A stretch of DNA of 64,000 nucleotides. It comes from Escherichia phage RB43. The notes under the pieces were generated by a model. The model did no database searches. It saw only the letters and a program-made list of their open reading frames with translations, and was not told where the DNA came from. Within the stretch, counting starts at the first letter, position 1; every line of letters begins with the position of its first letter. The DNA lies in the sequence record NC_007023.1. One strand, written 5' to 3'. Shown in pieces: positions 25,187-27,475 of the stretch. The translations under genes were made by a program, and so were the position numbers.

Positions 25187-27475
25187 ATGATTTCAAAACT
25201 TAACCCGTTACCAAAGATCCCGTTTGTTGATGGTGTCCCTTCGGACACCACACAAACCCCGATCAACTGGATAATTAACGGCGAAACTCTCGATGGTGCT
25301 AAAACCAAAGTCACTAACGAGGGTTCTTTAAACAGGTGCGGTGTTCTGGTACAAAAGAACGCGGTGCAATTAGAAACCAACACCATTACACAGACTGCAA
25401 AAATCAACGAAGTTATCGATCAGGTTAACCTCATTAGTGAAAACCTCGCGGCTATTTCTGATGAAAGCGTGATTGACAAACTGGATCAGGTTGTTGCTGA
25501 TGTAGAAGTGTTGAAAGTTGATATGACTGCGGTTCAAGGTTCTACTGCAAGCAATACCCTGAAAATCCAGGATCTCGATAAAGAGATCGGGACGTGGGAC
25601 GCTTCAACAGATCCTAAACACCGTACCATTCGAAAAGATATTATTTTCCTGAAAGGGGAAATGGGTGCGTACCCTGGGTTTAACGAAAACGGCGACGTAG
25701 ATCCGACATCAACGGGTTCCGGCATGAAATACAAAATCATGACGAACGCGCAAGCGATTTCGATTCATGAAGGACGTATTACGCGCCTTGAAGATGATTG
25801 GGCTAACTCAGACGTAGGTCATTTAACTGATGAAGTAACCGATCTGCGTAACGAAATGGGGCCAAAACATTTAGCGACATTTGAATCTGTATATGTTCGC
25901 CTGAACACTATCGGTACTGAGATCACTGGTATCAATTCCGAACTAACCAGCATCAACCAATATATCGGTCGTACTGGCACGGGTGGAACTGGTAGTATTT
26001 CTGCGCGTATGACTACGGCAGAATCGAATATCGCAACCCTGCAAACGCAGATGAATGATTCTGCTACTGGTGTATTACCTCGCGTAATTTCTTTGGAAAA
26101 TGCTGTCGGTAACTCTCAGATCCCTGGTAGTATTCGTTACGACATCAGCGCAATCAAACGTGACATCGGTGATATCAACATGATCGTCGGTGAATCAAGC
26201 GATGATGGTCTTCGTGGGGAAATGGCTCAGGTTATGACCGATATCGGTACTGATTCACAGCCTACGAGCATCAAAGGCCGTTTGCTGAACGTTGAGAACA
26301 CCCAACGTGACGATCATCAGAAACTGATTGACGTTGAATCTGTTGTTGGTAATACTTCAAGTGGACTCGTTGCGGCTAATATCGCGATGGGTAAAGCTGT
26401 TTACGGTGATGCAACGAGTTCTGATCCATTCCTGAAAGACGGTATTCAGAAAACAGCGCGTGACAGTAAAGCGGCTATCGGTGTAAACACAACCGGATCT
26501 GAAACAGGGATCTATAAACTGATTTCGGATTTGACTGCTCGTGTTGCTGCACTTGAAAGCGGTACTGGTGGCGAACTTGAACAACGTGTTTCTGATTTGG
26601 AAACCAATAAAGCATCGCATCAGGACGTTGCAAACGCATTGGTTCCGTATATTACCGAAGCGGAAGCAGATGTTAAGTACGAACCGAAGAAAATTCCGTT
26701 ATCGTTTACGCAAAACCTTGTTGGGCGTGGCGATTATATCGAAGGTGATGACATTTCTTTCATGGTTACGGTAACAGGTGGTAAACTGCCTTATGTCTAC
26801 CAGTGGAAGAAAGGAACCGCTGATGTAGGTACTAACGCATCGAGCATTCTGATCCAAAGCATTACCTCTGCCGACGCTGGCGTGTATAAAGTTGTTGTTA
26901 CCGATGCAGACAACACCGTAATTACTTCTGACGAAGTGACGGTTGCTGTTTATCCGGTTCCTCAGTTTGATACTAACCTGGCTGACAAATCGGTGGTTGA
27001 CGGTGATCCTCTGACTCTGGAAGTTGTATACAGCGGTGGTAAACCTCCGTACACTTACGAATGGTTCAAAGATAACTCTGTTATCTCTGGGGAAACATCA
27101 GCAACATTTACCAAATCTGCTGTTACAAGCGCTGATGCTGGTGAATACTATGTTTCTGTAACTGACGCAATGAACAACCAAAACGATTCAGTGAAAGCAA
27201 CCGTGACTGTAACACCTCGTCCGGCTCTTGCATTCACTACGGATCTGAGTGCTACTAAATCATACAGCACAGGTGCTAACATGGATCTTGCTGTTGTCGT
27301 GACTGGTGGTAAAACACCATATACGTATAAATGGTTTAAAGACACTGCGGAAATTTCCGGTCAGACAGGTGCAAGCCTTACCACTGTAGCAGAAGATGGG
27401 GTGTATAAAGTCGAAGTGACGGATGCACTAACGACTAAAATCACATCAACTGAATGCACGGTAACTGTGGCATAA
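25187..27475 (+). CDS. wac: fibritin (neck whisker) with C-terminal triple Ig-like domain array
   Basis: N-terminus [11 protein letters not shown]...NEGSLNR like T4 wac; coiled-coil middle; C-terminus has three repeats with PYxYxWxKD...SADAGxYxVxVTD; no foldon. Confidence 0.8.
   Translation: [762 protein letters not shown]

What the first reader, a model, noticed from the sequence alone, without database searches (positions are those of the whole stretch)
26699..27475. Fibritin ends in three Hoc-like Ig domains instead of the foldon
The wac N-terminus and coiled coil are T4-like, but the last ~255 residues are three tandem ~85-aa repeats with Ig-like signatures ([10 protein letters not shown]...[24 protein letters not shown]...[24 protein letters not shown]...[10 protein letters not shown]). 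The T4 foldon ending is absent. This would put Ig-like adhesion modules on the neck whiskers, while no separate hoc gene is seen where T4 has one.
Basis: partly seen in the sequence, partly recalled or inferred. Interest (0 to 1): 0.65.

Follow-up and report, generated by a model that had tools for sequence, protein, structure and literature searches.

The report
RB43 whisker protein with Ig domains
The neck-whisker protein (fibritin) of phage RB43 does end in three immunoglobulin-like domains where T4 has its small trimerising "foldon", but this was published in 2005 and discussed in 2013, and the phage does carry a small separate hoc-family gene.

Summary
The window is phage RB43 (Pseudotevenvirus). 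The wac ORF (25187-27475, 762 aa) is 100% identical to GenBank AY266305 "wac: fibritin".

- Residues 9-456 are collinear with T4 fibritin 7-454.
- No foldon is detectable.
- Residues 505-762 are three about 85-aa repeats, 37-49% identical to each other.
- The repeats pass Pfam Ig_3/I-set thresholds and fold as three confident β-sandwiches (pLDDT >90). These resemble titin I-set domains and RB49 Hoc.
- It is not an assembly chimera. The same gene occurs in a separately deposited wac-only record and in more than 50 related genomes.

It is not new. Letarov and colleagues (Ecol Evol 2013, citing Letarov et al. 2005) state that RB43 fibritin has three Ig-like domains and KP15 has one. They also propose the accessory-adhesin role.

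The claim of no separate hoc gene is wrong in part. A 167-aa Hoc-family gene lies two genes downstream of inh (47352-47855). Its capsid-binding domain comes first, and this copy carries an amber codon. The canonical Ig-array Hoc is indeed missing.

Additional detail found here: relatives carry 1, 2, 3 or 4 Ig modules. Ig2 and Ig3 are as close to Hoc or decoration-protein Ig domains of other phages as to Ig1.

Interest is low.

The parts
25187..27475 (+). wac (fibritin, neck whisker protein), 762 aa plus stop
   Evidence: ORF listed. It is 100% identical to RB43 wac AY266305.1. phrog_1056 'fibritin neck whisker' scores E=8e-185. Synteny is 12-wac-13. An AGGGG ribosome-binding site lies 8 nt upstream of the ATG.
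25187..25336 (+). Conserved N-terminal neck-attachment domain (aa 1-50)
   Evidence: Strongly aligned to the T4 fibritin N-terminus. It also matches the PDB fibritin N-terminal fragments 1ox3 and 2ibl over aa 9-66. The neck-attachment function is taken from the T4 literature (PMC3797505).
25337..26554 (+). Segmented coiled-coil shaft collinear with T4 fibritin (aa 51-456)
   Evidence: phmmer aligns RB43 aa 9-456 to T4 aa 7-454 at E=5e-47. BLASTP gives 33% identity. Pfam Fibritin_C covers aa 373-489.
26555..26698 (+). Loop SGTGG, one extra helical segment and the conserved linker [17 protein letters not shown] (aa 457-504), at the position of the T4 foldon
   Evidence: AlphaFold predicts helices at aa 442-457 and 464-489 and no beta-hairpin, with low pLDDT as a monomer. 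Heptad registers were found. The linker motif is conserved in relatives. There is no significant foldon similarity.
26699..26950 (+). Ig-like domain 1 (aa 505-588)
   Evidence: Repeat HMM, Pfam Ig_3 and SprB, pLDDT above 90. It is orthologous to the single Ig domain of Slopekvirus fibritin at 47% identity.
26951..27217 (+). Ig-like domain 2 (aa 589-677)
   Evidence: Pfam I-set covers aa 592-673 over the full profile, and Ig_3 covers aa 593-659. pLDDT is above 90. It is 53% identical to Slopekvirus Hoc domain 2.
27218..27475 (+). Ig-like domain 3 (aa 678-762) and stop codon
   Evidence: Repeat HMM and pLDDT above 90. It is 60% identical to an Ig domain of a 250-aa decoration-like protein, P0010, and 51% to EcS1 Hoc domain 3. 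It is absent from the Dev_CS701 and Olmo fibritins.
47352..47855 (+). hoc-family gene. It has an N-terminal Hoc capsid-binding-like domain followed by an unassigned, probably all-beta C-terminal region, and is interrupted here by an amber codon at 47535-47537.
Evidence: tblastn with T4 Hoc aa 286-376 gives E=1e-11. It is annotated hoc in RB16 and many relatives. The intact 167-aa version in RB43-GVA and RB16 matches phrog_11091 at E=2e-112.

Best explanation
This is the wac gene of phage RB43. It encodes a trimeric neck-whisker fibre.

Shown here:
- The N-terminal domain and segmented coiled coil are homologous to, and collinear with, T4 fibritin up to the residue before the foldon.
- In place of the 30-aa foldon there is a short loop, one more helical segment, a conserved linker ([17 protein letters not shown]) and three tandem I-set-type Ig-like domains.
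- These domains belong to the same promiscuous family as the Ig arrays of Hoc and other decoration and tail proteins of enterobacterial phages.

Inferred:
- Each chain of the trimer carries its own three-domain Ig arm. Every whisker would then end in a tassel of up to three flexible arms exposed to the medium.
- The arms probably act as low-affinity accessory adhesins for surface glycans of the host or its surroundings. This would keep the virion near cells until the long tail fibres engage.
- Folding and trimerisation must be nucleated by sequences in the enlarged C-terminal part, not by a foldon.
- The number of Ig modules (1 to 4 in relatives) is adjusted by module gain, loss and exchange with hoc-type genes.
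For: Identity and architecture.

Ig fold: Pfam scores exceed the curated cut-offs. AlphaFold gives pLDDT above 90 for all three domains. The top Foldseek hits are titin I67-I69 (E=2e-17) and RB49 Hoc 3shs (E=1e-15).

Relation to Hoc:
- phrog_2973 scores E=1e-57.
- EcS1 Hoc (P0004) is 41% identical and is itself a full-length Hoc by phrog_1149.
- The Slopekvirus canonical Hoc is 42% identical.

Not an artefact: the same gene occurs in the separately deposited wac-only record AY266305, in RB43-GVA, RB16, CfP1, Miller and IME-CF2, and at about 80% identity in more than 40 further genomes.

Copy-number variation:
- One Ig domain in Slopekvirus.
- Two in Dev_CS701 and Olmo.
- Four in KKP_3664, and four in P0002 with the extra module at a different position.

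Literature: PMC3797505 reports that RB43 fibritin is trimeric and has three Ig-like domains. It also reports that RB43 fibritin cannot fold through a foldon alone and needs sequences in its expanded C-terminal domain, and it proposes an accessory-adhesin role.

From my own knowledge of the field: phage Ig-like domains, as surveyed by Fraser et al. 2006 and 2007, are surface-exposed and thought to bind carbohydrates weakly. T4 Hoc binds mucin glycans (Barr et al. 2013).
Against: - No ligand is known for any of these domains, and nothing here tests binding.
- Only a monomer could be modelled, so the arrangement of the Ig arms in the trimer is unknown. They may be splayed or bundled.
- The T4 function of the fibritin C-terminus is to hold the long tail fibres through gp36. 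That function may be what the Ig domains provide here.
- Relatives with a single Ig domain show that three are not required.
Confidence: 0.55

Rival explanations
1. The Ig array keeps the classical T4 role of the fibritin tip. It binds the knee (gp36 region) of the long tail fibres, assists their attachment during assembly and holds them retracted under unfavourable conditions. The Ig domains are then a protein-protein docking module, not an adhesin for the cell surface.
For: PMC3797505 summarises genetic and cryo-EM evidence that the C-terminal part of T4 fibritin contacts the long tail fibre near its knee. From my recollection of the abstract of Letarov et al. 2005, novel gpwac C-termini co-vary with novel gp36 C-termini. 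The N-terminus and shaft are conserved, so the geometry relative to the tail fibres is retained.
Against: The number of Ig modules varies from 1 to 4 among close relatives, which changes the reach by several nanometres. That is hard to reconcile with a fixed docking geometry. The same Ig family sits on capsid decoration and tail-tube proteins, which do not touch tail fibres. The gp36 gene was not examined here.
Confidence: 0.3
2. The C-terminal region is mainly a folding and registration device, or a passive stabilising cap, that substitutes for the foldon. It has no ligand.
For: [quoted passage not shown] The linker [17 protein letters not shown] plus Ig1 is the part conserved in every RB43-type fibritin, including the one-domain Slopekvirus form.
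Against: Ig domains of this family are monomeric modules in Hoc and pb10-type decoration proteins (PDB matches). Extra modules 2 to 4 are kept at conserved positions across relatives, which suggests selection for something beyond nucleation.
Confidence: 0.12
3. The wac-Ig fusion is an assembly or annotation artefact, a chimera of wac with a hoc gene.
For: None was found.
Against: An identical ORF occurs in a separately deposited wac-only record and in independent complete genomes. A continuous ORF with the same junction occurs in more than 50 phages from different laboratories. Composition is uniform across the junction. A separate hoc-family gene exists.
Confidence: 0.01

Closest known systems
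RB43-type fibritin (gpwac) as described by Letarov et al. 2005 (J Bacteriol 187:1055) and in Ecol Evol 2013 (PMC3797505)
   Same: It is the same protein. The wac ORF is 100% identical to AY266305.1. The paper lists the RB43 fibritin as AAP04365.1. It states that RB43 fibritin carries three Ig-like domains and KP15 one, that it is trimeric, and that it does not fold through a T4-type foldon alone.
   Different: Nothing differs in the gene itself. This analysis adds the residue-level junction (T4 residue 454 / RB43 residue 456), two- and four-domain variants in newer genomes, and domain-by-domain similarity to Hoc proteins.
T4 fibritin (gpwac; PDB 2bsg, 3j2o)
   Same: The N-terminal neck-binding domain, the segmented triple coiled coil and the gene position between 12 and 13. 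The proteins are 33% identical and collinear over about 450 aa.
   Different: T4 ends in the 27-30 aa foldon beta-hairpin propeller. RB43 has no detectable foldon and has 306 extra residues: coil, linker and three Ig domains.
Hoc (highly immunogenic outer capsid protein) of T4-like phages: T4, RB49 (PDB 3shs), EcS1, Slopekvirus
   Same: Tandem I-set-type Ig-like domains of the same sequence family. They are surface-exposed on the virion and are thought to be weak glycan adhesins.
   Different: Hoc is a monomer anchored to the centre of capsid hexamers by a C-terminal capsid-binding domain. The RB43 Wac has no such domain and is anchored at the neck by the fibritin N-terminus as a trimer.
Ig-like domains on other phage structural proteins (T5 pb10 decoration protein, PDB 5lxk/8zvi; major tail proteins; PDB 9occ 'putative neck whiskers protein gp24')
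   Same: Single or tandem Ig modules of the same family appended to the C-termini of virion proteins. This is the 'promiscuous Ig domain' pattern.
   Different: The carrier proteins and oligomeric states differ. The phage of origin of 9occ was not identified here.

Membership tests
Fibritin (gpwac) of T4-like phages | Conserved N-terminal domain of about 50 aa that attaches to the neck | tested here: met
   BLASTP against T4 Wac starts at residue 8 of RB43 and residue 6 of T4 and is highly similar. phmmer matches the PDB fibritin N-terminal fragments.
Fibritin (gpwac) of T4-like phages | Long segmented alpha-helical coiled-coil shaft | tested here: met
   Collinear with T4 residues 7-454 at E=5e-47. 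Pfam Fibritin_C scores 81.5 bits against a cutoff of 21. Helices and heptad registers were found.
Fibritin (gpwac) of T4-like phages | Gene position between gene 12 (short tail fibre) and gene 13 (neck) | tested here: met
   ORF map, RB16 annotation and T4 annotation.
Fibritin (gpwac) of T4-like phages | Trimeric state | not testable with these tools
   Only monomer prediction was available. PMC3797505 reports biochemical evidence of trimers for RB43 fibritin.
T4/JS98-type fibritin subtype | C-terminal foldon ([27 protein letters not shown]) | tested here: not met
   The best local match scores 23 against a shuffle mean of 25.4. There is no beta-hairpin in the model at aa 487-504. The protein therefore belongs to the separate RB43 type.
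Immunoglobulin-like I-set / Ig_3 domain | Sequence match above the curated Pfam thresholds | tested here: met
   Ig_3 scores 73.1 bits (cutoff 30) in three stretches. I-set scores 47.9 (cutoff 23.7). Ig_2 scores 50 (cutoff 27).
Immunoglobulin-like I-set / Ig_3 domain | Beta-sandwich fold | tested here: met
   AlphaFold predicts three all-beta domains with pLDDT of 92-98. Foldseek probability is 1.00 to titin I-set tandems and to RB49 Hoc.
Hoc (head outer capsid decoration protein) | Capsid-binding domain (T4 Hoc aa ~287-376) | tested here: not met
   tblastn and BLASTP with the T4 Hoc C-terminal domain find it at 47376-47576 and weakly at 46096-46272, but not in wac. Wac shares Hoc's Ig modules but is not a Hoc.
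Hoc (head outer capsid decoration protein) | Tandem Ig-like domains of the Hoc sequence family | tested here: met
   phrog_2973 scores E=1e-57. Identity to true Hoc Ig arrays is 41-42%.

The most novel reading that the evidence does not exclude
In the RB43 lineage (Pseudotevenvirus) the canonical Hoc, an Ig array followed by a C-terminal capsid-binding domain, has been lost. It is still present next to a capsid-binding-only paralogue in the sister genus Slopekvirus. I-set Ig modules of Hoc type now occur only on fibritin. The collar whiskers may therefore have taken over the adhesive role of Hoc through exchange of Ig modules between hoc-type genes and wac. The whisker Ig array is still being remodelled, with 1 to 4 modules and the extra module at different positions.
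Probability: 0.3. Interest if true: 0.4.

Novelty: already known. Interest (0 to 1): 0.15.

Why it matters
The case is a textbook example of domain swapping in phage structural proteins. It shows that fibritin can trimerise without the foldon that is widely used in protein engineering. It also places putative glycan-binding Ig modules on the collar instead of the capsid, which is relevant to models of phage adherence to host surfaces or mucus.

All of this has been in the literature since 2005 and 2013, so the finding adds no new biology.

The small additions made here could guide an experimental test of whether whisker Ig arrays act as accessory adhesins:
- the exact junction with T4 fibritin
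- variants with 1 to 4 Ig modules
- loss of the canonical Hoc alongside retention of a capsid-binding-first hoc paralogue
- an amber codon in that gene in this sequence

Tried and rejected
- **Foldon remnant.** Pfam Fibritin_C matches its whole profile (aa 373-489), which suggested a hidden foldon. Direct alignment shows only YITEAEAD against YIPEAPRD, which is not above shuffled controls. The model has no hairpin there. The Pfam hit is carried by the coiled coil. A vestigial first foldon strand cannot be excluded.
- **Recent internal duplication.** There are no DNA-level repeats among the three Ig segments, and they are only 37-49% identical as protein. I rejected recent tandem duplication.
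- **Foreign composition.** GC content of the Ig segments (0.44-0.455) equals that of the rest of the gene, so there is no sign of recent import.
- **Assembly chimera.** Rejected.
- **Fold of the C-terminal half of the small Hoc.** The single-sequence AlphaFold model had pLDDT 42 and is uninformative. Pfam finds nothing in this protein. My impression that it is Big_2-like is unverified.
- **Letarov et al. 2005.** The paper could not be read in the held library. Its content is cited through PMC3797505 and from memory of its abstract.
- **PDB entry 9occ.** A literature search for the phage behind it found nothing.
- **Trimer modelling.** Not possible with the tools available.

Full report
**Identity of the window**

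The ORF at 25187-27475 (+) encodes 762 aa. It lies between a gene 12 homologue (23783-25174) and a gene 13 homologue (27511-28434). Megablast shows it is 100% identical to GenBank AY266305.1, "Pseudotevenvirus RB43, wac: fibritin", and to both RB43-GVA genome records. It is 99.2-99.9% identical to wac of CfP1, Xman, RB16, Miller and IME-CF2. It is about 80-88% identical to wac of more than 40 further Enterobacter, Cronobacter, Citrobacter and Klebsiella phages. The window is therefore RB43 DNA and the gene order is that of T4.

**Check of the observation**

- Coordinate 26699 is the first base of codon 505.
- An HMM made from the three repeats places them at aa 505-588, 589-676 and 678-762.
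- The repeats are 37-49% identical pairwise. Alignment scores are 123-173 against about 0 +/- 11 for shuffled sequences.
- Pfam gives Ig_3 at 73.1 bits (cutoff 30, three stretches), I-set at 47.9 (cutoff 23.7) and Ig_2 at 50 (cutoff 27).
- PHROGs gives the fibritin family phrog_1056 (E=8e-185) for the whole protein. For the last 258 aa the best hit is the Hoc-like decoration family phrog_2973 (E=1e-57).
- AlphaFold2 was run on aa 441-762 with a 15-sequence alignment. It predicts two helices followed by three all-beta domains with block pLDDT of 92-98.
- Foldseek against the PDB gives titin I67-I69 (E=2e-17) and the three Ig domains of RB49 Hoc, 3shs (E=1e-15), among the top seven.

The repeats do have an Ig fold. 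The gene is not an assembly chimera, because it exists in a separately deposited wac-only record and in dozens of independent genomes.

**Relation to T4 fibritin**

BLASTP gives 33% identity over 416 residues starting at the N-terminus. phmmer aligns RB43 aa 9-456 with T4 aa 7-454 (PDB 2bsg and 3j2o, E=5e-47). This covers the whole T4 protein up to the residue before the foldon (G457-L483).

Beyond that point RB43 has the following:
- a loop, SGTGG
- one more helical heptad segment, aa 464-489
- a linker, [17 protein letters not shown]
- the three Ig domains

The 31-residue T4 C-terminus finds only YITEAEAD against YIPEAPRD in RB43. That match scores 23, below the mean of shuffled controls, 25.4. 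No hairpin is modelled there. The full-profile Pfam Fibritin_C hit (aa 373-489) is thus explained by the coiled coil. The linker motif is conserved in every RB43-type fibritin examined, including the Slopekvirus form (LYIKEADADLRYESK). By inference it is a candidate for the registration and trimerisation element.

**What is already known**

The Ecol Evol 2013 paper from the Letarov and Krisch groups (PMC3797505) makes the following points:
[quoted passage not shown] 2005)".
- RB43 fibritin is trimeric.
- Only T4 and JS98 fibritins fold through the small foldon. The others need sequences in their expanded C-terminal domain.

I could not open Letarov et al. 2005 itself.

**The hoc remark**

tblastn with the T4 Hoc capsid-binding domain (aa 286-376) hits the window at 47376-47576 (E=1e-11) and weakly at 46096-46272, which is the C-terminus of the inh homologue.

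The first hit lies in a reading frame that starts at 47352 and ends at 47855. RB16 and many relatives annotate this frame as hoc. The intact 167-aa protein of RB43-GVA and RB16 matches phrog_11091, "Hoc-like head decoration", at E=2e-112. Its residues 6-82 match the C-terminal end of the T4-type Hoc family phrog_1149. In this window codon 62 is TAG instead of TAT, and codon 53 is GTC instead of GAC.

A hoc-family gene is therefore present two genes downstream of inh. It has the capsid-binding domain first and is interrupted by an amber codon in this particular sequence.

The canonical Hoc is absent. Slopekvirus phages have two genes at the same locus. One is a 353-aa Hoc with an Ig array and a C-terminal capsid-binding domain. 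The other is a 91-aa capsid-binding-only paralogue beginning MATEKWTTVHPIPWRNTSF, like the RB43 gene. In the Pseudotevenvirus genomes listed, the Wac-type Ig sequence occurs at one place only, in wac.

**Variation and origin of the Ig modules**

| Ig modules | Phage or protein |
|---|---|
| 1 | Slopekvirus fibritin (583 aa) |
| 2 | Dev_CS701 (678 aa), Olmo (679 aa), metagenomic P0003 |
| 3 | RB43, RB16 and most relatives |
| 4 | KKP_3664 (853 aa), extra module between Ig2 and Ig3 |
| 4 | P0002, homologous extra module after Ig3 |

Domain-by-domain identities show that positions are orthologous across relatives. RB43 Ig2 is 53% identical to Slopekvirus Hoc domain 2, compared with 37% to Ig1. 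RB43 Ig3 is 60% identical to a domain of a 250-aa decoration-like protein (P0010) and 51% to EcS1 Hoc domain 3.

There is no DNA-level repeat among the three segments and no compositional break. The pattern fits old module exchange within the promiscuous phage Ig family, not a recent duplication. That family is found on Hoc, pb10-type decoration proteins and tail proteins in 760 phage records and in several solved phage structures. The neighbour-joining tree of 85-aa domains is not robust, so I use only the identity values.

**Mechanism**

Shown: the architecture and the homologies described above.

Inferred:
- Each whisker trimer ends in up to three Ig arms.
- The arms act as weak accessory adhesins for surface glycans. 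This follows from what is known of Hoc and of phage Ig-like domains, and from the proposal in PMC3797505.
- Trimerisation is nucleated by the linker and Ig1 region instead of a foldon.

The main rival is that the Ig array keeps the T4 role of docking the long tail fibre knee. The two roles are not exclusive. Neither can be tested with sequence tools.

**Verdict**

It is already known. Interest is low.

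Noticed in passing
window 47352-47855 (+), stop codon at 47535-47537: The RB43-group hoc gene encodes 167 aa in RB43-GVA and RB16. In this window it carries a TAT->TAG amber codon at codon 62 and a D53V change. The capsid decoration protein would therefore be truncated unless the codon is suppressed. This could be a real laboratory-stock mutation in a non-essential gene or a sequencing error.
   Followed up: partly
window 47352-47855; L009 1405-2752 (Slopekvirus vB_KpnP_KM3): The Pseudotevenvirus Hoc has the Hoc capsid-binding-like domain at its N-terminus, followed by an unassigned beta-rich C-terminal region. 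That order is the reverse of T4 Hoc. Slopekvirus has both a canonical Hoc (Ig array plus C-terminal capsid-binding domain, 353 aa) and a 91-aa capsid-binding-only paralogue in tandem at the same locus.
   Followed up: partly
window 45643-46001, inside the inh homologue 45376-46296 (+): A perfect 87-bp tandem repeat is present in 4.1 copies with 100% matches. It encodes PDVVVDVSQDFMDYVKDVAPEVADQIKLV four times. RB43-GVA has a single copy (219 aa against 306 aa here), so this is a very recent in-frame expansion in the prohead protease inhibitor homologue.
   Followed up: partly
window 46096-46272 (C-terminus of the inh homologue): The C-terminal 60 aa or so of the Inh homologue (…YYTCPWWIYDWIKKNPDWYKD…) resemble the capsid-binding domain of T4 Hoc (tblastn E=6e-5; phrog_1149 E=1.6e-5). 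This hints that Inh and Hoc share a capsid-binding module. T4 Inh against T4 Hoc is not significant by BLASTP (E=1.3).
   Followed up: partly
window 29214-29876 (+) and other intergenic inserts (RB16 annotation, L001): Homing-endonuclease-like ORFs interrupt the late structural gene cluster. One lies between genes 14 and 15, and others lie near genes 5/6 and 23/24 according to the RB16 annotation. This is typical of T4-like genomes. I did not examine them.
   Followed up: no
wac aa 487-503 (window 26645-26695): The linker [17 protein letters not shown] is more conserved among RB43-type fibritins than the flanking coil. It shares Y-I-x-E-A-x-x-D with the first strand of the T4 foldon (YIPEAPRD). 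It may be a vestige of a foldon or an independent registration motif. The match is not statistically significant.
   Followed up: partly
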